Position numbers and translations under genes: made by a program. 64,000 nucleotides of DNA from a virus, in the IMG/VR virus record IMGVR_UViG_3300007790_000161, positions 5,809 through 69,808 of that record; one strand, written 5' to 3'. Shown here piece by piece: positions 13,291-21,310 of the stretch. Every line of letters begins with the position of its first letter. The stretch's first letter is position 1. A model generated the notes under the pieces. The model ran no database searches. It was given only the letters and a program-made list of their open reading frames with translations, and was not told where the DNA came from.

Positions 13291-13708
13291 GCTTCTGCCG
13301 GAATCGGACATGTCGGGCTCGCCCCGCTTCGCGGGGCTTCGCCCTCTTTTATACCAAATTGTACCAATTTGGTAGTGTTTGCCCTGGTCTGTACTGAAAT
13401 GTACCCGAATGTCCGATTTTCCCGAATCCCCAGTCGGCACAGAAGATTTTACCTCCTGAGGGGTTGACTAATTGCCAGGGCATAGGGTACGCGCGGGAAT
13501 TCCGGGCCTGCCTGGTTTCGAGCGTCCGGCCGAGCCGTGCCGACACGCGCAGCGCACCCGAGCAGCCGGATAGTTTAACTCTAAACATTTAGGCCGGCAA
13601 ATCATTTCATTAGCTAACTAAATAGTTAGACAGCCTAAGCTGTTACATTCCGGCCGGACGATTGTACCAATCAGTGTAGCAATACAGACGTTGATACAAT
13701 CCGAGATT

Positions 13709-13752
13709 GTTGAACACTCAACAATCAGAGTCTAAGAGGTTGAGTGTTCAAC
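13709..13752. repeat. perfect 14-bp inverted repeat
   Basis: GTTGAACACTCAAC-N16-GTTGAGTGTTCAAC. Confidence 0.9.
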
Positions 13753-13838
13753 CAAAATTTGTAGCATAGATTGTAGCAATACGAAGAGCGCTACAAAGCC
13801 AGTCGGCAAGGATGGTTGAAATCTGTACTTCCACAGGC

Positions 13839-14114
13839 TGTGGATAAACCTGTGGATAACTTCGCTACTCTGTGCAATGTTACTTCACAGTATGTGAGAA
13901 AAGCTCTGTACGCCTTTCTAAGAGCCTCCCAGCACTGCCCATAGGCAACCACCCCAGGGCACCCGCGAAAGGCCGTTAGACGCGATTTTCACGCTGCGTA
14001 GTATCTGACGGACCGTTGGGAAACCCTAGAAAACCGCAGGTCAGACTATGTTTCGGCATTTATGAAGGGTTGTTGAATAACTGCGCACGGTTACTCTCTG
14101 TTGACTGTGGATAA
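13839..14114 (-). promoter_or_regulatory. three perfect DnaA boxes (TTATCCACA)
   Basis: TGTGGATAA at 13839-13847, 13851-13859 and 14106-14114. Confidence 0.7.
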
Positions 14115-14317
14115 CTATTCTTTACCAAGTTGTTACCAAAAAGGTCTTGACAACGAAGCAAAAATTTGCCTACCGGGGGCGGCCGGCCAATCAGGTAAAA
14201 TTTTGGTAACGATTCCTGAAAAGCCTTGACAACTGACCAGCGGGAAGCTATTTACGCGCAGCGTGCACGCTCCGGGTGTGATGGGAACGGCATAGGTTAC
14301 TCGCCGGTTAACTAACT

Positions 14318-14335
14318 GTGTGACGCACGTCACAC
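14318..14335. promoter_or_regulatory. perfect palindrome matching the Crp/GlxR consensus TGTGA-N6-TCACA
   Basis: GTGTGACG-CA-CGTCACAC, 11 bp upstream of TTGCAA. Confidence 0.55.
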
Positions 14336-14340
14336 GAGAA

Positions 14341-14535
14341 AGGGACTTGCAATCCGGGCCGGTTTCCTGGAGAGTCTTCCTTGTCAGAACGGAACGGCGG
14401 AACGGGAAACCGGGAAGTCGGGAAGGGAAGACAAGCGGTAACCGACTCTGATAGAGTCGGAGACGCACCGGAGGAAAACCCGAAAGGGCCAGTACAAAGG
14501 AATGCGCGGTTCCTTGAGAATTCAATAGTGGGTAC
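14341..14535 (+). promoter_or_regulatory. rRNA-operon-like tandem promoter and leader with boxA
   Basis: TTGCAA-N17-GAGAGT; extended -10 TG-A-TAGAGT (14449-14457); CCC-GAAA-GGG hairpin (14479-14488); GTTCCTTGAGAATTCAATAG (14509-14528), which matches actinobacterial rrn boxA as recalled. Confidence 0.72.
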
Positions 14536-14878
14536 AGAAACACATTACGCACCATAGAGCGCTAAAGCGTCCCTAGTCCGTGAATTCTGCGGGGAATACG
14601 CCAATACATTGTTAGCGCGAATCGGTATTCTCGGCACTTTGCCAGAATTAGCGAAAAGACACCCTCTCCCTGTCATGGCAAGACATATCGGGTGTGGCGG
14701 ATATCCGGGCGGTAGACCGGGTGTGAATATCCAATCTGAGTAGCGAAATTCAGCGGGTGTTTTGTTTATTGGTCAATGGTGTAACCGTCCCGATTATCTA
14801 GGGACTGTGGCTTTAGACGCTTACCCTTTCGAGCGTCTAGTGTCCACATGTGATTAGGGGAAGAAAGCTGAGGCGAAA
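14536..14878 (+). ncRNA. highly structured leader of about 340 nt or ncRNA
   Basis: Stems include AATTCTG/CAGAATT, GGGAATAC/GTATTCTC, ACACC/GGTGT, GGATAT/ATATCC, GTCCC/GGGAC and TAGACGCT/AGCGTCTA. Confidence 0.55.
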
Positions 14879-15184
14879 ATGACCACTGCCAAGAGCACTG
14901 CCAAGCGTCCGGCGCGCAAGGTTGCCGAGACTGCCGAGAGTGACCCTCAGAACGTCGCAGGATGGACGTTCACGGCCCCCCGGAAGGTTCGGGGGTGGAA
15001 GAGTGCCGGTACCGTCTCTCTGACGCGTCAGACGCCGGATGAGCCGTCCGGCGGGTGGCATAAGGTGTGCCGTGCCCTGTGGAACATGGGTGAGGCGGCC
15101 GAAACCGCAACGGGCGGGAATGCGTATTACGCCCGTCGCCGTGACGCGATTGTCTCGCGTCTGGAATCCTTCCTTTCCAAGTAG
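14879..15184 (+). CDS. hypothetical protein, first gene of the putative early block
   Basis: First ORF after the leader; Ala/Lys-rich N-terminus. Confidence 0.7.
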   Translation: MTTAKSTAKRPARKVAETAESDPQNVAGWTFTAPRKVRGWKSAGTVSLTRQTPDEPSGGWHKVCRALWNMGEAAETATGGNAYYARRRDAIVSRLESFLSK

Positions 15185-15281
15185 CTAAACCGTCTCTTCC
15201 GGTAATGCCGGATTGAGGCAAGGGAAACCCAACAAACCGAATTCCCCTAATCACTTGCGGACACTAGAAAGGAGAAAATCA

Positions 15282-15773
15282 GTGTTCCGACTTTCGGTGA
15301 ATGGCAAAACCTACAACCCGACTTCCGTTAAGGATTTTTGGCCGCGTGCCAATCGTTCTGACGGATACGACGGAAGTTGGGTTGAATTCCCGGATTTCTA
15401 TTACTGCGTTTGGATGACCATTGACGGCAAGACTTTTGCCGTTGACGGAAATGCTTCGCGGTATGAGCTTGCCCGGCACATTCGGAATTCCCGCAAGATT
15501 GCGGCGAGTAATCCGGATGTTCCCTTTTCCATCGGCTATCAGAAGATTTGGACAACGCGACGGGAATTGCTTTGCCCGTGGTGTGGCGTCCGGCCGGACC
15601 AATGGGAATGGGACTGTGACGGACAGTTTCCCATGTCCACATGTGGCAGCGAACAGTGTGACAAGCTGAATCGCTGTCAGGGGTGCGGACGCGACGGGGA
15701 GGCACGCATTAACCATCTGTGTGATGAGTGCTACGTCATGGAATACAAGCGACCACTACCGGGCCGGAAGTAA
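15282..15773 (+). CDS. hypothetical protein with C-terminal Zn fingers
   Basis: RBS AAAGGAG with GTG at 15282; CPWC, CxxxxC, CQGC and CDEC. Confidence 0.7.
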   Translation: MFRLSVNGKTYNPTSVKDFWPRANRSDGYDGSWVEFPDFYYCVWMTIDGKTFAVDGNASRYELARHIRNSRKIAASNPDVPFSIGYQKIWTTRRELLCPWCGVRPDQWEWDCDGQFPMSTCGSEQCDKLNRCQGCGRDGEARINHLCDECYVMEYKRPLPGRK

Positions 15774-15870
15774 TTCAGCTAGTAGTTTGGGGGTCTGCCT
15801 TTCCCGAAAGGGAAAGGCATTCCACCCCAATCCGCTAGACGAAAAGCGGTGTCCTGAAAGGGAAAAGGAA

Positions 15871-16545
15871 ATGTCCGAAACCATCGGCACTCAGGCTGAG
15901 GCGGAAGAGATTTTCAGTTTCGTTCTGCGCTATAACGCGTGGAAGCAAATGGAGCGGAACAACGAATTCGCGGCGTACGAATTCAGCCATCACGCAGAAA
16001 TGCTGCGGCTGCACCGACAGTTCCCGGATGACCCTTGGTACCGGCACCCCGGCCCGCTCCGTTGCCACTACGCCTACGGGCCGAACATCGAAAAGCCGGA
16101 ACTTCCGGAAGGTTGGAAGTTCCTTGCGGCCGGTGTCTCCCGTCGCGCTTACCTCTCCCCTTCCGGGGTGGTTTACAAGGTGCAGCGCAACCCTGAGAGC
16201 GACTATCAGGGGAACAAGGGAGAGCACGAAACGGCGGAGCGTGTGCGCAAGTCCGGGGATGTCCGGGGCGCGTACATTCCCCGGACGTCGCTTTACAAGG
16301 TTCCGGGGTCATGGGTAATCGCCCTGGAATACATGAACGGCATTCGCGGTGACGACCATTGGGAAATGTACTGCTATCCCGGTGAACGGTGCCGTTGCGC
16401 ATTCCCCGGATACGTCCGGTGCGCGTCCGCTATCAAGCGGGAATTGCAGAACAAGTTGGGCCTTTCCGACTTGCACAACGAAAACGTTTTGTGGGTTCCC
16501 TCACAACGCGTTTGGGCGGTCGTTGACTTGGGATTGGCCAACTAA
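15871..16545 (+). CDS. protein-kinase-like protein (paralog 2)
   Basis: AAGVSRRAY, VVYK, NKGE, IALEYMNG, DLHNEN and VVDLG. Confidence 0.82.
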   Translation: MSETIGTQAEAEEIFSFVLRYNAWKQMERNNEFAAYEFSHHAEMLRLHRQFPDDPWYRHPGPLRCHYAYGPNIEKPELPEGWKFLAAGVSRRAYLSPSGVVYKVQRNPESDYQGNKGEHETAERVRKSGDVRGAYIPRTSLYKVPGSWVIALEYMNGIRGDDHWEMYCYPGERCRCAFPGYVRCASAIKRELQNKLGLSDLHNENVLWVPSQRVWAVVDLGLAN

Positions 16546-16615
16546 GCCATTCTGTGGCTTTAGGGGTGCTCACTCGAAAGGGTGAGCACACCCTATGGAC
16601 TCACAGAAAGGATGA

Positions 16616-17080
16616 ATGACAGTGAGTTTCAATCCGGCTGAGAAAGTCAGTCAGTGGAATTACGCCGTAGAAATCGAGTATTCGGAAGGGACTAGCACTC
16701 TCATCCGTTCGGCTTTCTTCGGTACGGCAAAGGATGCGGCTGCATTCCTTGACGGTTTCGACTACACAAACGGTGACGTTTTCGGGTGGTCGGGTGATTC
16801 CGCAACGATGGAAGCAATCCAGAGTTACCGAAAGGGTGACGACGTGCGAGCGGTTCCGGAATTCATCACGGAATACGACGTTGACGACGAAACCGATTCG
16901 GGTAAGGCAATCGGAGCGGACGAATTCAATCGTCTGTTTCTCGCCTTCCACCGAAAGGACGGTTTCACGGTGCGCCGTTGGGCCGTTCCGAACGGACACG
17001 TTTACGCCGTTATGTATAACGGTGAGCTGTCCGGCGCGGCATGGCACGTTCCGACGGATGCGGATTCCGTCATCATGTAA
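16616..17080 (+). CDS. hypothetical protein
   Basis: RBS GAAAGGA; acidic. Confidence 0.7.
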   Translation: MTVSFNPAEKVSQWNYAVEIEYSEGTSTLIRSAFFGTAKDAAAFLDGFDYTNGDVFGWSGDSATMEAIQSYRKGDDVRAVPEFITEYDVDDETDSGKAIGADEFNRLFLAFHRKDGFTVRRWAVPNGHVYAVMYNGELSGAAWHVPTDADSVIM

Positions 17081-17168
17081 GAGCCTTTCAGTCTCTATAG
17101 GGAAAGGGGGTGGTTACCTTGCGACGTAGGCGCAAGCGCAAATTACCCAACGGCTGAAAGGAAAAGGA

Positions 17169-17405
17169 ATGCGGGAATATCTGGTCTGGAATGAATCCGG
17201 CGACTTGCTTTCGGGACCACACCGGAAGAGAGAAACGGCGGAAAGGATGGAAGCTAAGTTCATGGCGGAATGTGCGGCGGAATGCGGTACAGACGGTATG
17301 GACGAAAACGGAAACGGTAATTTCGCGTGCGGAGTGCTTTCCCCGCACGGAATCCACATTCAAGTGACGGAAGGTGGATACGACATTACCGGGCACGATT
17401 ACTGA
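17169..17405 (+). CDS. hypothetical protein
   Basis: RBS AAGGA. Confidence 0.65.
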   Translation: MREYLVWNESGDLLSGPHRKRETAERMEAKFMAECAAECGTDGMDENGNGNFACGVLSPHGIHIQVTEGGYDITGHDY

Positions 17406-17486
17406 CGCTAGGGCGTCCGGGCATTCGCAACTGTCGTTGTGAGTGTCCGAATGTCCTAAGGGTTAGGGCATTGAAAGGGGTATGAA

Positions 17487-17660
17487 ATGCGTACGGTCAA
17501 GGTTGACGGTAAGTCGGGCATCATCGCTGCGCGCGGTATGGGTCCGAACGATGGCAACGTGTTCGTTCTGTTCGATGGGGACGGCACGGCGGAAGAGTCG
17601 GCCCGTTGGGTGTCGGTGGAGTCGGTCACGGTGACCGGAACCCTTCCCGCATCGTTCTAG
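17487..17660 (+). CDS. hypothetical protein (57 aa, SH3-like beta pattern; not in the ORF track)
   Basis: RBS AAAGGGG; MRTVKVDGKSGIIAARG...VFVLFDG...WVSVESV. Confidence 0.6.
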   Translation: MRTVKVDGKSGIIAARGMGPNDGNVFVLFDGDGTAEESARWVSVESVTVTGTLPASF

Positions 17661-17763
17661 GCCCGTGGGGGCCGTTCTGAGAGGCTTTGGAACGCCCCCC
17701 GGCCCGTTTCCCCAACCAAGCTGAGTACGGCCGTTAGAGCGGCGTACAGGAGGTTTTTGTAGC

Positions 17764-18027
17764 ATGGAACGTAGCACGGTGTCCCTGTCCACTCCGCGCG
17801 GGGAACTGATTCGGTTTGAGATTCCGGGATTCGGTTTGGTGCACATGCGCCCCGGAAATCTCGCGGAATGCATGACGCGCACTGAGGAAATGACGATTCC
17901 GGAAATTCGGCAGTCGCTCATTTCGGAAGGGTGGAGCTTGGGAATCCTTGACGGTCCGTCCGATGCAATTTCCCGAATCTCTTGGGTTGCGGTTTGGGGA
18001 GAGTGCCACGGACACGGCATTTTCTGA
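17764..18027 (+). CDS. hypothetical protein
   Basis: RBS AGGAGG. Confidence 0.65.
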   Translation: MERSTVSLSTPRGELIRFEIPGFGLVHMRPGNLAECMTRTEEMTIPEIRQSLISEGWSLGILDGPSDAISRISWVAVWGECHGHGIF

Positions 18028-18122
18028 TATGAGCGTTTAGCCGCTCTAGTCATTCTCAGGATTCCTGAGTTTGGCTAAATCGGCTGAAAGCAAAGTCGAG
18101 AATTCCACGAAAGGGAATTACC

Positions 18123-18680
18123 GTGATTGGCAATGCACGTGACGCGGAAATGATTCGTGATTACGTCGTTAACTCGCGGATTGTCCGGGAAGAGCGTTCG
18201 AATTACGAATGTGGCTATTTCATCGGCCCCGTTCGCAATCGACCGGCCCGACCGGAAGGATGGAAGCGCGTAGGCGGCGGGTGTTTTCGTTCCGCGTGGC
18301 TTTCCCCGGACGGTGTGATTTACAAGGTGGAACACGCTTACGGGAATGGCGGGCAGTCGAATTCGGAGGAATACGAAAACGTCGTCCGAATCCTCACGGG
18401 GAACAAGTCGCACCCTTACGTGTCCATTCCGCGAGTCACCTATTACGCCCTTGACGGGCGGGGGGTCATCGCAATGGAGTACGTGAACGGGGAAGAGCCG
18501 GGATACTGCCACGGGTGCGGAAGTGGTTACCGGCACTGCACCACAAAGGTTCGGGGGAAGTGCATTAACCACATTTACGCGGAAATCGAAAAGGAATTCG
18601 GCCTTTTCGATATGCACTCCGGAAACGTGATGTTCATTCCCGAACAAGAGCGTTTCGTCGTTATCGACATTGGCGCTTAG
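18123..18680 (+). CDS. protein-kinase-like protein (paralog 3)
   Basis: GGGCFRSAW, VIYK, NSEE, IAMEYVNG, DMHSGN and VIDIG. Confidence 0.82.
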   Translation: MIGNARDAEMIRDYVVNSRIVREERSNYECGYFIGPVRNRPARPEGWKRVGGGCFRSAWLSPDGVIYKVEHAYGNGGQSNSEEYENVVRILTGNKSHPYVSIPRVTYYALDGRGVIAMEYVNGEEPGYCHGCGSGYRHCTTKVRGKCINHIYAEIEKEFGLFDMHSGNVMFIPEQERFVVIDIGA

Positions 18681-18759
18681 ACGTCTAGTGATTGGCAGGC
18701 TTGTTTAGCTGCCTTTCGCTAAATGCCTAAGGGTTAGGCAGGAAAAGGGGAAATGCAGA

Positions 18760-19098
18760 ATGACGGTAAAGCTTGGCATGTACGGCAAGGGTCGCACTTC
18801 CTGGATTGACTTCCGGGATGTGATTCTGTCGGGTGAGGCTTTCACCATTTCTTCCGGCACGTTCTACGGTGGTCCGGTCAAGCCCGGTTATGCGGCCCAT
18901 TTGGAAATGGGCCGGATGCCGAATAACGAGCGTGAGATTTTCCGCGCGCTCGCGCCGGAAATCGATTACGTGATTTACAGCTATGCGACTCCGATTGCAT
19001 GGCACGAAAGGGGTGCGGACGTTTGGCACCTTACGGAAGCGGGTCACAGCAATTCCACAAAGCGGCACAAGGGTAAGCTTTGTGGTCTGCCGTTCTAA
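18760..19098 (+). CDS. hypothetical protein (YSYxTPIAW motif)
   Basis: RBS AAGGGG; recurrent phage motif. Confidence 0.7.
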   Translation: MTVKLGMYGKGRTSWIDFRDVILSGEAFTISSGTFYGGPVKPGYAAHLEMGRMPNNEREIFRALAPEIDYVIYSYATPIAWHERGADVWHLTEAGHSNSTKRHKGKLCGLPF

Positions 19099-19183
19099 AC
19101 GGTTCGGGTTGCGGTATTCCGGGCGGGTGTTCGGAATACCGTTTTCCCAATCCGCTTAGGGTGAGTGGATTAGAAAGGAAATC

Positions 19184-19393
19184 ATGGTTATTCTTGCGTT
19201 GCTCGGAATGTTCGCTATTTCGCTCGTGTTCGGAGCGATTGCGGCTGTCCCTATCGCATGGCTTGTCATGCTGATTATGGGAGCGCTGCATAGCGTATTC
19301 CCGTCCGTGGAAAACCTTTCCTTCCTTTCGGCATGGGTGGCAACTTGGCTTGTTGCCATTATCGCCGGGGTGTTTGTGCAGAACCGAAGCTAA
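19184..19393 (+). CDS. membrane protein
   Basis: RBS AAAGGA; almost entirely hydrophobic. Confidence 0.7.
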   Translation: MVILALLGMFAISLVFGAIAAVPIAWLVMLIMGALHSVFPSVENLSFLSAWVATWLVAIIAGVFVQNRS

Positions 19394-19477
19394 CGGTTCG
19401 GGTGATTGGCAATGGAGAGTTTGCCAATTGCTCAATCCGCTAGATTCAAAAAGCGGTGACCGAAAGGGTAAAAGCTA

Positions 19478-19858
19478 ATGGGACACATTTTCGCTTTCAT
19501 GACCGGTACCGCCGTTTCGCTTGACGGTGGGGAGGACGAAAGGGAAGAGCGTCACGGCTGGATTGACAAGGAATGGAGCATGACCGTTCTGCACGATTCC
19601 CGGAACGACGTTTCTCCGCTGGTTTCCGTTGACGAATCGGACACGGAAACCCTCACGGACGAAATCCGGGATGTGTTGGGAGACGGTTCCCTGTGGGATG
19701 ACAACGGGGACGGCTCTTTCTATGCACAGGGTGAGTCCGTGGAAGATGGTTACGCATGGACGTACGCCGTGCATTTCAAGCGCAAGGGTGGCGCGTCTGA
19801 GGGGTTCGCGGAGACGGATTGGCACCCTGAGACGGACGGCGGTATTTCTCTCGTCTGA
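19478..19858 (+). CDS. acidic hypothetical protein
   Basis: RBS AAAGGG. Confidence 0.7.
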   Translation: MGHIFAFMTGTAVSLDGGEDEREERHGWIDKEWSMTVLHDSRNDVSPLVSVDESDTETLTDEIRDVLGDGSLWDDNGDGSFYAQGESVEDGYAWTYAVHFKRKGGASEGFAETDWHPETDGGISLV

Positions 19859-19916
19859 GAGGCATACAGCCGCTAGGCGGTAGGTTGGTACATAGCGTGC
19901 AACAAAAAGGTGCTGT

Positions 19917-20393
19917 GTGCCTTCCTACGGCACCGGGAAACCGTTCCCGGTGTCTGGCTTAGGGAAGGGGTTACAAGTGGCTCTAACGGGCGTACACGCG
20001 TGCATGGACGGTATCCGGCACGGCAACGGGGAGTGTGGTTTCAGTCCGTTGTCTGTCCGGGGTGCGACGTGCTGTCAGTGCAAGGGGTATCCGGCCACTA
20101 CCGCACAGGGTGACTGCACTGTGTGCGGGGGCGGGTATTACGAATCGATGGACGATTTCCGGGCCGATATTCCCCCGGTAGATTCCGGGCGGGTAGTGAG
20201 TGAATTCCCCATTACCATTACCGCCTATAGAGGAAACAAGGAAGTAAAGGTAAGTGGAGTAAGGGAAGATTCGGTAAAGGCCAATACGGATAGGGAAGGG
20301 AATGTGTTCCTTTCCTTTGAATTCAAGGATGACCCGGACCGAATCGGGTACATTCCTTGCGTGGATTGGTACGCAACCGAATGTGAATGGTAG
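19917..20393 (+). CDS. hypothetical protein; the true start may be GTG 20196
   Basis: The C-terminal 65 aa look like a discrete protein. The 5' part competes with ORF 19910-20113. Confidence 0.45.
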   Translation: MPSYGTGKPFPVSGLGKGLQVALTGVHACMDGIRHGNGECGFSPLSVRGATCCQCKGYPATTAQGDCTVCGGGYYESMDDFRADIPPVDSGRVVSEFPITITAYRGNKEVKVSGVREDSVKANTDREGNVFLSFEFKDDPDRIGYIPCVDWYATECEW

Positions 20394-20622
20394 AAAAGCA
20401 CTACACACTAGGAAGAAAGGACAGCCTATCGATTGTCGATAGATTTAGAGGGTAATAGTGCGGCAATTCAAAAGGCCGCATTTAATAGGTAATTCGGCTA
20501 AAAAGCCTGCAAATGCAAGGGAAAAGGCATGAAAACGGCTGCATTTCTCGCAATTCTCGGTGTTTCTCTGTGCATCCTGTATATCAGGGGCGCATATACG
20601 GTAATTACAGGAGGGTAGATAT

Positions 20623-20904
20623 ATGGGTTGTGCTATTCAGTGGGTATCTAGGAAGGGAAATGGGGGTGTTATCTATGGTGGGTATGTAGTGAATGACGGT
20701 ACACACATTGTCTTTGTGGATACCCGGTCAAAGGGGAATACCCGCCCGCTCTATCTCTACCTAGGAAAGGGGGATGACCTAAAGGGTATGGCTGTATATA
20801 GGGAATCGGCATTCATCATGCCGGATGTTCTCTTGAATGCAGCTCAATACAATACCCTTGTTGCCTCTATGGATGACTATAAGACTAGGTCATTCAAAGG
20901 GTAA
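20623..20904 (+). CDS. hypothetical protein
   Basis: RBS AGGAGG. Confidence 0.6.
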   Translation: MGCAIQWVSRKGNGGVIYGGYVVNDGTHIVFVDTRSKGNTRPLYLYLGKGDDLKGMAVYRESAFIMPDVLLNAAQYNTLVASMDDYKTRSFKG

Positions 20905-21112
20905 TCAGTCGGAAGAAAACCCGCGAGAAATCCGGGCGGAAAAGATTCAGCATTATGGAGAGGTTGCATCCTTTGCGGGTAGGGGTGTTCTTTTCGTCGG
21001 CACAATGGGAATTGCTGCGGTATCGGCAATCGCAATCGCTCTAGCTGGATTGTTCTTTGTCCTGGGAATTGTGTTCCAAGCTTTCTCGGTATTCTAGAGA
21101 GGAATTCTTTTA

Positions 21113-21156
21113 GGGGACCCGGCGATAATCTCAATGGGTCCCCCGGAATTCTTTTT
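21113..21156 (+). terminator. terminator ending the early block
   Basis: GGGGACCC...GGGTCCCC followed by a T tract. Confidence 0.6.
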
Positions 21157-21310
21157 CAATTGCGAAAGCAATTGTTTATGGGCGCACTAATTGCGAATGC
21201 AAATTCGAATTGCCGGCCTATATCATACATCACAAAAAATTTGTGACATTTTGAATCTGGAAATAGGTTACTTTAAGTTGATTGTAGCTAACGGAGAGTA
21301 TTCGGCCCTA

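What the first reader, a model, noticed from the sequence alone, without database searches (positions are those of the whole stretch)
14536..14878. Multi-hairpin leader of about 340 nt between boxA and the first early gene
Seen: an ORF-free stretch almost entirely accounted for by stems, including a multibranch domain closed by AATTCTG/CAGAATT and a long interrupted hairpin TGTGG..TAGACGCT/AGCGTCTA..CCACA near the RBS. Established: cis-acting structured RNAs such as HK022 put modify RNA polymerase, and rrn leaders are RNase III substrates. Inference: an RNA-based antiterminator, processing module or stand-alone ncRNA.
Basis: partly seen in the sequence, partly recalled or inferred. Interest (0 to 1): 0.6.

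Follow-up and report, generated by a model that had tools for sequence, protein, structure and literature searches.

The report
Structured phage leader RNA enclosing first gene
In a group of large Streptomyces phages the long untranslated start of an operon folds into a conserved RNA structure that matches no Rfam family, and it also pairs with sequence beyond the first gene, much as ribosomal RNA precursors do, which suggests the phage borrows the host's rRNA transcription-and-processing logic for its own genes.

Summary
The window is a Gilsonvirus-like Streptomyces phage (Stanwilliamsviridae). Positions 14536-14878 are the distal part of an untranslated leader that begins at rrn-like promoters and carries an actinobacterial rrn-type boxA/boxC at 14514-14530.

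Comparison of 12-16 phage and metagenomic relatives shows four things:
- **Closed domain.** A 236-nt multi-helix domain (14548-14783, P1-P6) has strong compensatory covariation: 31 of 77 model pairs on a plain MAFFT alignment and 39 of 58 on a model-fitted one.
- **Long-range helix.** A 27-bp helix (14836-14862 with 15242-15268) encloses the whole first ORF. It is kept in 16 sequences in about eight sequence versions, and 20 of its 27 pairs show changes on both sides.
The hairpin near the RBS (14806-14848) exists but shares 13 nt with that helix, so the two are mutually exclusive. Every leader type keeps such a competing hairpin.
The AATTCTG/CAGAATT stem is not supported.

There is no Rfam match, and the domain model found nothing in 121 Streptomyces genomes. 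Best reading: an rrn-operon mimic, with boxA antitermination plus a leader-trailer helix that is probably an RNase III site. The function is inferred, not shown. The scan has not noted this on other DNA.

The parts
14147..14457 (+). Context: tandem host-type promoter-like sites. TTGACA at 14147-14152 and 14226-14231, TTGCAA at 14347-14352, and an rrn-like -10 TAGAGT at 14452-14457.
   Evidence: The positions are conserved in the alignment of 13 phages. CTCTGATAGAGTCGG matches CTCTGGTAGAGTCGG upstream of boxA in Streptomyces rrn leaders. The simple sigma-70 scan found none, so these are promoter-like by similarity only.
14479..14488 (+). Context: GNRA-capped hairpin CCC-GAAA-GGG upstream of boxA, in the boxB-like position of rrn leaders.
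   Evidence: Read directly from the sequence. Conserved in type-A relatives. Host rrn and gntR-DTE loci carry a hairpin at the same place.
14504..14535 (+). Context: rrn-type boxA/boxC. The core TTGAGAATTCAATAGTG lies at 14514-14530.
   Evidence: It is the only match in the window. The same motif gave at least 120 loci in genome contigs, and nearly all of those listed by name are Actinomycetota. Of 121 occurrences, 55 have the 16S start 99-246 nt downstream and 54 are cut by a contig end. Rfam confirms 16S downstream in L067 and L053.
14548..14783 (+). Closed multi-helix leader domain:
- P1 14548-53/14778-83
- P1b 14559-65/14612-18
- P1c 14567-70/14598-601
- P2 14621-27/14767-73
- P3 14630-42/14753-64
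- P4 14645-52/14743-51
- P5 14659-64/14690-95
- P5a 14672-74/14682-84
- P6 14700-08/14717-31
   Evidence: - RNAalifold recovers P1, P2-P4, P5 and P6.
- On the MAFFT alignment A2, the whole model (these helices plus P8 and the hairpin 14806-14848) is 91.5% paired, against 30-42% for slid controls. 31 pairs have changes on both sides, against 12.9 +/- 2.4 in shuffles.
- On model-fitted alignments 39 of 58 pairs covary.
- Covariance model R1 also finds the domain in two metagenomic contigs that were not in the seed.
- Many G.U pairs fit only the + strand.
14664..14689 (+). Invariant single-stranded motifs CTCTCCCT (14664-14671) and ATATC (14685-14689). They flank the covarying mini-hairpin P5a inside P5.
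   Evidence: These are invariant columns in A2, while the P5a stem changes GTC/GAC, GCGC/GCGC, TTCC/GGAA, GGT/ACC, GGG/CCC and GCC/GGC.
14787..14805 (+). Small hairpin P8 (GTCCC ... GGGAC).
   Evidence: Conserved in most relatives, and replaced by other hairpins at the same place in Ankus. Covariation is weak on the MAFFT alignment.
14806..14848 (+). Its loop TACCCTTTCG contains CCTTT, which is complementary to the AAAGG of the gene 2 ribosome-binding site.
   Evidence: It is identical in 10 of 12 phages. One metagenomic relative (L187) has a compensatory G-C to A-U change in the inner stem. Local dG is about -22 kcal/mol.
14836..14862 (+). Leader strand of the long-range (leader-trailer-type) helix. 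It overlaps the 3' arm of the local hairpin by 13 nt.
14879..15184 (+). ORF1: 101 aa, pI 10.3, with a basic N-terminus (MTTAK..RPARK). It is enclosed by the helix. The family has two alternative C-terminal modules.
   Evidence: There is no Pfam, PHROGs, PDB or Atlas match. The protein diverges faster than the leader.
15242..15268 (+). Trailer strand of the long-range helix. It is followed at once by the Shine-Dalgarno AAGGAG (15269-15274) and the GTG start (15282) of gene 2.
   Evidence: 25 of 27 positions pair in the window. The helix is kept in 16 sequences in about eight versions. 20 of 27 pairs have changes on both sides, and 87% of cells are paired against 33-45% when slid. Each phage's own arms give duplex dG of -44 to -56 kcal/mol, against about -17 to -34 between groups with unrelated arm sequences.

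Best explanation
The stretch is the distal two thirds of a long untranslated leader RNA. The leader is about 415 nt from the last promoter-like site and longer from the upstream ones. It heads the operon of small orphan genes that runs to the right end of the phage genome.

Shown here:
- It is read on the + strand.
- It lies directly after a copy of the host rrn leader signal boxA/boxC.
- It folds into a closed 236-nt multi-helix domain (P1-P6).
- It ends in a hairpin whose 3' arm can instead pair with sequence beyond ORF1, giving a 27-bp helix with two conserved 1x1 mismatches that encloses ORF1.

Inferred mechanism:
1. Host RNA polymerase starts at rrn-like promoters.
2. boxA/boxC load NusB/NusE and NusA, so the complex reads through the untranslated leader and the operon without Rho termination.
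3. The domain folds co-transcriptionally, keeps the leader compact and may bind a factor.
4. The local hairpin holds the leader strand until the trailer strand is made.
5. The far more stable leader-trailer helix then forms, as around 16S rRNA. It is cut by RNase III, which separates the leader RNA, the ORF1 message and the downstream message. This changes access to the ribosome-binding site of gene 2, which abuts the helix.
For: Structure and strand:
- Covariation of P1-P6.
- The G.U-rich helices P2 and P3 fit only the + strand.
- Non-seed metagenomic members fit the model.

Long-range helix:
- Found as the only long inverted repeat in 13-22 kb.
- Own-pair duplex energies are -44 to -56 kcal/mol, against about -20 to -30 for shuffled trailers. 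Pairs between groups with unrelated arm sequences give about -17 to -34; groups that share part of an arm reach about -47.
- Per-sequence table and formal count: 20 of 27 pairs have double changes, 0 of 500 shuffles reach this, and mismatch positions are conserved.
- One-sided changes give G.U on the + strand in Sham and Gilson.
- The helix is in the MFE and the centroid of the whole transcript, with z = -4.62.

Competing local hairpin:
- Present in every leader type.

rrn mimicry:
- The motif is the actinobacterial rrn leader element.
- It is colinear with Streptomyces rrn leaders from the -10 region to boxC.

Literature:
- rrn leaders have boxB-boxA-boxC followed by leader-trailer helices cleaved by RNase III, and a helix longer than 17 bp is required (PMC10250234).
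- boxC is a specific NusA site in M. tuberculosis rrn (PMC2724277).

Selection:
- The leader is 73-96% identical across phages, while ORF1 protein is 56% identical or undetectable.
Against: - No transcript, 5' end or cleavage site was observed.
- A second group of relatives (Stigma, Belfort, Karp, Patelgo and metagenomic L185, L190, L191) and DekoNeimoidia keep the long-range helix but lack both boxA and the P1-P6 domain. The three elements are therefore separable, and the helix does not depend on boxA.
- Unlike E. coli rrn, boxC is not part of the helix, and 300 nt of phage-specific RNA lie in between.
- The invariant loops (CTCTCCCT, ATATC, CGGTAGA, AGTAGCGAAA) point to a specific partner that this explanation does not name.
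- The shuffle test is inflated by the relatedness of the sequences, and the structure was derived from these same sequences.
Confidence: 0.5

Rival explanations
1. Stand-alone non-coding RNA. The 236-nt domain, with or without boxA, is the product. It is released from the primary transcript, for instance by cleavage at the helix, and acts in trans, for example by sequestering a host protein such as a Nus factor, a ribonuclease or RNA polymerase.
For: The domain is closed by its own helix P1, so it is a self-contained unit. It has invariant single-stranded motifs typical of binding sites. It is better conserved than the gene it precedes. Cleavage at the helix would free it.
Against: No promoter-terminator pair delimits it, and no terminator-like site lies in 14300-14900 on the + strand. 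It always sits in the same leader position. Phages of the second leader type do without it. The apical part P5-P6 is replaced in Kenrey and absent in Muntaha.
Confidence: 0.2
2. Regulatory switch operated by a ligand or protein. The domain, or the hairpin next to it, binds a factor that decides between the local hairpin and the long-range helix. That choice sets translation or stability of ORF1 and gene 2. The factor could be the small basic ORF1 product, in a lambda N-like autoregulatory loop.
For: Two mutually exclusive, co-conserved structures share 13 nt in every leader type. The shared segment and both partners are invariant in 10 phages. The hairpin loop contains CCTTT, complementary to the gene 2 ribosome-binding site. 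ORF1 is small and has pI 9-11 in the 14 phages that keep the basic MTTAK-type start; the first gene of Circinus is unrelated, with pI 6.2. lambda N binds its own leader (own knowledge; the N-boxB relation is described in PMC10250234).
Against: There is no similarity of ORF1 to N or to any RNA-binding family. The predicted structure is of low confidence. The energy gap between hairpin (-22) and helix (-48 kcal/mol) favours simple replacement once the trailer is made. No known riboswitch matches.
Confidence: 0.17
3. DNA-level element. The 27-bp inverted repeats are recombination or transposition ends of an ORF1 cassette, or the region belongs to a replication origin next to the DnaA boxes. On this view the apparent RNA structure is incidental.
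For: ORF1 is modular and varies between phages. Three perfect DnaA boxes lie 400-1000 bp upstream. Homing-type endonuclease genes are inserted upstream in Forrest and TunaTartare.
Against: One-sided changes yield G.U, not A.C, on the + strand. The two mismatches are conserved in position but never become pairs. ORF1 has the same orientation and place in all 16 sequences. No recombinase gene is adjacent. Helices P2 and P3 are rich in G.U and would be mismatched as DNA or on the other strand.
Confidence: 0.03

Closest known systems
Bacterial rrn operon leader: boxB-boxA-boxC plus the leader-trailer helix around 16S rRNA (PMC10250234)
   Same: The order is the same: promoters, a GNRA hairpin, boxA, boxC, leader helices, then a long helix formed by sequences flanking the downstream cargo. 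The helix is longer than 17 bp. The boxA/boxC sequence matches the host group's rrn motif.
   Different: The cargo is a 101-codon protein gene, not 16S rRNA. A 236-nt phage-specific domain lies between boxC and the helix. boxC is not part of the helix. A competing local hairpin sequesters the leader strand. The domain was not found in the 121 Streptomyces genomes searched.
Phage lambda nutL - N leader
   Same: It belongs to a phage early-type operon. boxA lies near the 5' end of a long structured leader. The first gene encodes a small, very basic, largely disordered protein. A double-stranded RNase III-type element sits just before its ribosome-binding site.
   Different: There is no boxB hairpin after boxA, and ORF1 has no detectable homology to N. 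The double-stranded element is long-range and encloses the gene. Nothing shows that ORF1 is an antiterminator.
Phage T7 early-region RNase III sites (own knowledge)
   Same: They are imperfect double-stranded RNA elements with internal loops between early genes of a polycistronic phage transcript.
   Different: T7 sites are local hairpins, whereas here the arms are 379 nt apart and bracket a whole ORF. Cleavage has not been tested here.
icaR mRNA 5'-3' UTR pairing in Staphylococcus aureus (PMC3868564, seen)
   Same: Sequences upstream and downstream of one ORF pair over a long range. That pairing touches a ribosome-binding site and creates an RNase III substrate.
   Different: Here the 3' arm lies in an intercistronic spacer of an operon and abuts the ribosome-binding site of the next gene. 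The setting is a phage.
HK022 put RNA
   Same: It is a cis-acting structured RNA downstream of early phage promoters.
   Different: By own knowledge, put is about 70 nt with two stem-loops. This is a 236-nt closed domain with two branch points. There is no sequence or model match, and a host-type boxA is present, which put-dependent antitermination does not need.
gntR-DTE RNA (Rfam RF02989) of Streptomyces
   Same: In Streptomyces sp. locus L028 the same boxA/boxC-like motif is followed about 35 nt later by a structured RNA (112 bits). This is a host precedent for boxA followed by a structured non-rRNA leader.
   Different: The phage leader does not match RF02989 even at E <= 10.

Membership tests
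rrn-type antitermination leader (boxA/boxC) | A boxA/boxC sequence like that of the host group's rrn leaders | tested here: met
   TTGAGAATTCAATAGTG at 14514-14530 fits the pattern found upstream of 16S in Actinomycetota. The 22-nt stretch GTTCCTTGAGAAYTCAAYAGTG is shared with Kitasatospora and Streptomyces loci. It lies just outside the finding's coordinates.
rrn-type antitermination leader (boxA/boxC) | Binding of NusB/NusE and NusA, and resistance to Rho termination | not testable with these tools
   This needs binding assays or read-through reporters.
rrn leader-trailer helix | Complementary sequences flanking the cargo that form a helix of more than 17 bp | tested here: met
   The helix has 27 positions, of which 25 pair in the window. 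It is conserved with compensatory changes in 16 sequences.
rrn leader-trailer helix | The cargo is a ribosomal RNA | tested here: not met
   The enclosed segment is ORF1, 14879-15184. There is no rRNA in the window.
RNase III processing site | About two turns or more of double-stranded RNA | tested here: met
RNase III processing site | Cleavage by RNase III | not testable with these tools
   No transcript ends could be read. The runs are contigs only and are probably DNA.
HK022 put-type polymerase-modifying RNA | Two adjacent stem-loops of about 70 nt directly after the promoter that act without Nus factors | tested here: not met
   Covariation supports a 236-nt closed domain with two branch points, preceded by a host-type boxA. 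The put features themselves are recalled from own knowledge.
Any Rfam family (release 15) | A score at or near the gathering threshold | tested here: not met
   Only four tRNAs were found in the window at gathering scores. Nothing relevant appeared in 13300-15300 at E <= 10.
lambda N / nut system | An N-like arginine-rich protein and a boxB hairpin 3' of boxA | tested here: inconclusive
   ORF1 is basic and small but matches no family. The only GNRA hairpin lies 5' of boxA, as in rrn.

The most novel reading that the evidence does not exclude
The phage has copied the whole logic of a ribosomal RNA operon to express and excise a protein-coding message. That logic comprises the promoters, the boxA/boxC antitermination signal and a leader-trailer helix formed with help from the antitermination complex.

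The added 236-nt domain would be a new class of cis-acting RNA. It would work with, or on, the Nus-modified polymerase or the processing enzymes. It might be controlled by the small basic ORF1 protein, as in an N-like feedback loop.
Probability: 0.25. Interest if true: 0.8.

Novelty: new variant of a known kind. Interest (0 to 1): 0.62.

Why it matters
Phage use of boxA and of RNase III sites is textbook for lambda and T7. All of that work is in enterobacteria and involves local hairpins.

Here an actinophage lineage combines three things:
- a faithful copy of the host rrn leader signal;
- a large RNA domain that is supported by covariation and matches no Rfam family;
- an rRNA-style leader-trailer helix placed around a protein gene, together with a conserved placeholder hairpin that competes with it.

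If the inferred mechanism holds, it gives a compact natural system for asking how antitermination complexes help distant RNA strands find each other. That question is still open for rRNA biogenesis. It would also show how phages of Streptomyces schedule their gene expression, about which almost nothing is known.

The domain is also a ready candidate for a new RNA family, with a seed alignment of 14 sequences.

Tried and rejected
**Searches that found nothing useful**
- Rfam at gathering scores and at E <= 10 gave nothing relevant.
- Single-sequence folding of the given coordinates was not significant.
- The IMG/VR scan with a 16-mer of the domain gave 35 hits. Only 3 are real, and they are the known phages Gilson, Blueeyedbeauty and Annadreamy.
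- Covariance model R1 found no match in Patelgo, Stigma, DekoNeimoidia or Circinus, even with filters off.
- R1 found no match in the 121 Streptomyces genomes searched. That search had no positive control genome, so it is weak.
- A search for the exact boxC oligonucleotide in papers found none. PMC1276712 is not held.
- No paper on leaders of these phages was found.

**Expression**
- No RNA holder is listed.
- Four runs guessed to be RNA were laid. They are contigs, 'probably DNA', of related phages, so no statement on expression is possible.

**ORF1 protein**
- Pfam, PHROGs, PDB sequences and the Atlas gave nothing.
- The AlphaFold model was poor (pLDDT 59.8) and was not used.

**Structures and readings rejected**
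- The local hairpin 14627-14648, which is favoured by single-sequence MFE in 6 of 12 phages, was rejected in favour of P3/P4. It has no compensatory change, and its variants are wobble or broken, whereas P2-P3 has seven pairs with double changes.
- In the full-transcript MFE the freed 5' arm of the hairpin pairs with 14558-14576. That partner is not conserved in Annadreamy or Faust, so the pairing was rejected.
- An invertible segment, transposon ends or an origin were considered and rejected (see rivals).
- The idea that the block is a long terminal repeat was rejected. Gilson's repeat is exactly 766 bp, and its single copy maps to about 20458-21223 of the window.

**Untestable**
- Repeats of TTAGACGC, CTCTCCCT or the P6 loop elsewhere in the window are not enriched enough to suggest a protein-binding site family.
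- The second leader type is predicted to be structured, but it has too little variation to test.

Full report
**Where the stretch lies**

The window is a Streptomyces phage of the Stanwilliamsviridae (Loccivirinae, close to Gilsonvirus). A 1.8-kb query around the finding matches 43 phage records, all Streptomyces phages, and the nearest are 89-92% identical over that query. The source record is an IMG/VR contig of 71,960 bases.

In Gilson the homologous place is a 1762-bp gap without annotated genes, between genes 254 and 255. It is followed by about 6 kb of small hypothetical genes on the same strand that run to the genome end.

Gilson's terminal repeat is exactly 766 bp. Its single collapsed copy maps to about 20458-21223 of the window. 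The stretch therefore heads the last operon of the genome and is not inside a long terminal repeat. The eight downstream ORFs tested have no Pfam family, and only three have uninformative PHROGs matches.

**Checking the observation**

The stretch is free of credible ORFs. The short frames listed are broken by 1- and 2-nt indels among relatives.

Folding the given coordinates alone is unremarkable, with z = -1.48 on the + strand and -2.19 on the - strand. Rfam gives nothing, either at gathering scores or at E <= 10. Single-sequence evidence therefore does not lift the observation above chance.

Comparative evidence does. The leader is 73-96% identical across phages whose ORF1 protein is only 56% identical (Sham) or not detectable at all by tblastn (Blueeyedbeauty, Annadreamy, TunaTartare, Faust).

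**The upstream signal**

Positions 14514-14530 read TTGAGAATTCAATAGTG.
Nearly all of those listed by name are Actinomycetota.
- Of 121 occurrences, 55 have the 16S rRNA start 99-246 nt downstream, and 54 are cut by a contig end, as collapsed rrn operons are.
- Rfam places 16S rRNA 155-160 nt downstream in two of the loci.
- In a Streptomyces genome all five copies sit in rrn leaders. The phage is colinear with them from CTCTG(G/A)TAGAGTCGG (the -10 region) through a hairpin to GTTC(T/C)TTGAGAAYTCAAYAGTG. The similarity stops there.

In rrn operons boxB-boxA-boxC nucleate the antitermination complex (PMC10250234). In M. tuberculosis boxC is a specific NusA site in which an AUA triplet is critical (PMC2724277).

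**The domain**

I completed the model by eye and tested it.

On the plain MAFFT alignment, the full model has 77 pairs. They comprise the domain helices, the small hairpin P8 and the hairpin near the RBS:
- 91.5% of cells are paired, against 30-42% when the partners are slid by 1-3 columns.
- 31 pairs have changes on both sides, against 12.9 +/- 2.4 in shuffles (0 of 500 shuffles reach this).
- 66 cells have such changes, against 18.1 +/- 3.7.

A covariance model built from the domain has 243 positions and 58 pairs. It re-aligns the sequences to 93% paired, with 39 of 58 pairs covarying. It also recognises two metagenomic contigs that were not in the seed, at 135 and 261 bits. With these the figures hold.

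Several helices show four to six different sequence versions, for example P1:
- CGCACC/GGTGTG
- CGCATC/GATGCG
- CGCAAT/ATTGCG
- AGCGTC/GACGCT
- AGCGCT/AGCGCT
- CGAGC/GCTCG

P2 and P3 hold many G.U pairs, which fit only an RNA read from the + strand.

Results for specific stems:
- A local hairpin at 14627-14648 is favoured by energy in half of the single sequences. It has no compensatory change, and its variants weaken it. The same variants are compensated in P3.

Caveats:
- The sequences are related.
- The model was derived from these same sequences.
- The fitted alignments lean towards the model.
- The plain alignment and the non-seed members are the fairer tests.

**The long-range helix**

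A self-search of the contig showed that 14836-14862 is complementary to 15242-15268. It is the only long inverted repeat in 13-22 kb, and the arms bracket ORF1 (14879-15184).
- The same arrangement was found in all but two of the phages inspected with the repeat tool. Patelgo's helix then appeared in the duplex calculation, which leaves Circinus as the only phage without one.
- The duplex energy of each phage's own arms is -44 to -56 kcal/mol. Shuffled trailers give about -20 to -30, and arms from groups with unrelated sequences give about -17 to -34.
- On a MAFFT alignment of 16 sequences, 87% of cells pair (33-45% when slid). 20 of 27 pairs have changes on both sides, and 71 cells carry such changes against 23.6 +/- 3.8 in shuffles.
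- The per-sequence table shows about eight sequence versions. Nearly every one has two 1x1 mismatches near positions 11 and 14; Kenrey has only one there. The mismatches change identity but do not become pairs. One-sided changes give G.U on the + strand.
- The trailer strand ends one base before the AAGGAG of gene 2.
- The whole transcript 14465-15300 folds with z = -4.62, and the helix is in both the MFE and the centroid.

The hairpin 14806-14848 is real. It is identical in 10 of 12 phages, and one metagenomic relative carries a compensatory G-C to A-U change in it.

Its 3' arm shares 13 nt with the leader strand of the long-range helix, so the two cannot coexist. Every leader type keeps a local hairpin of -21 to -30 kcal/mol whose 3' arm overlaps the leader strand, although the sequences differ. 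A segment that must pair with two partners would explain the invariance.

**Distribution**

Two further leader forms exist. One group comprises Stigma, Belfort, Karp, Patelgo and three metagenomic contigs. Another comprises DekoNeimoidia and Circinus. These lack boxA and the P1-P6 domain. All of them except Circinus keep the long-range helix.

The domain model found nothing in 121 Streptomyces genomes, and IMG/VR added no new members.

**Reading**

The anatomy repeats that of an rrn operon: promoters, hairpin, boxA, boxC, leader helices and a helix enclosing the cargo. Here a protein gene stands in place of 16S rRNA.

The most economical mechanism is therefore antitermination at boxA, followed by formation and RNase III cleavage of the leader-trailer helix. 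The local hairpin would act as a placeholder for the leader strand.

The steps from 'structure exists' to 'Nus factors bind' and 'RNase III cuts' are inference from the rrn, lambda and T7 precedents. The role of the 236-nt domain itself remains the least explained part. Its invariant loops suggest a specific partner.

No expression data could be obtained.

Noticed in passing
window 13839-13859 and 14106-14114: There are three perfect DnaA boxes (TGTGGATAA). Two are spaced 3 bp apart. They are conserved in relatives, in the same gene-free region upstream of the promoters.
   Followed up: partly
window 13877-14050: Blocks of near-perfect conservation across all 13 aligned phages lie upstream of the promoters, for example 13877-13925 and 13975-14010. 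They are more conserved than any neighbouring gene. Their function is unknown.
   Followed up: no
window about 13640-13800: Iteron-like repeats (TGTAGCAATAC and GGTTGAA..TTCAACC palindromes) lie in the distal part of the gene-free region.
   Followed up: no
L002 385-810 (Forrest) and L006 452-877 (TunaTartare): An HNH endonuclease gene (Forrest, Jada) and an endonuclease VII gene (TunaTartare) are inserted in the otherwise gene-free region upstream of the leader.
   Followed up: no
L028 564-734 (Streptomyces sp.) and L178 (Kitasatospora sp.): The same boxA/boxC-like motif occurs outside rrn operons. In the Streptomyces locus L028 it lies next to a gene read on the opposite strand that I did not identify. 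It is followed about 35 nt later by Rfam gntR-DTE RNA (RF02989, 112 bits). This suggests the motif is also used on non-rRNA leaders in the host group.
   Followed up: partly
window 14879-15184 and homologues: ORF1 proteins share a basic N-terminus. They carry one of two unrelated C-terminal modules (..RALWNMG..ATGGNAYY.. or ..LTPRALENLTELA..), shuffled among phages. Muntaha combines parts of both.
   Followed up: partly
window 14000-20000: The operon behind the leader has 53-57% G+C, against 43-49% in the rest of the window.
   Followed up: no
window 14656-14738; L004 (Kenrey); L139 (Muntaha): The apical part of the domain (P5-P6) behaves as an exchangeable module. It is replaced by other sequence in Kenrey and in one metagenomic contig (83 nt replaced by 105 nt). 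P6 is absent in Muntaha.
   Followed up: partly
window about 20458-21223: The window runs through the physical genome end. Gilson's 766-bp terminal repeat is present once here, so the source contig is a permuted or collapsed assembly.
   Followed up: yes
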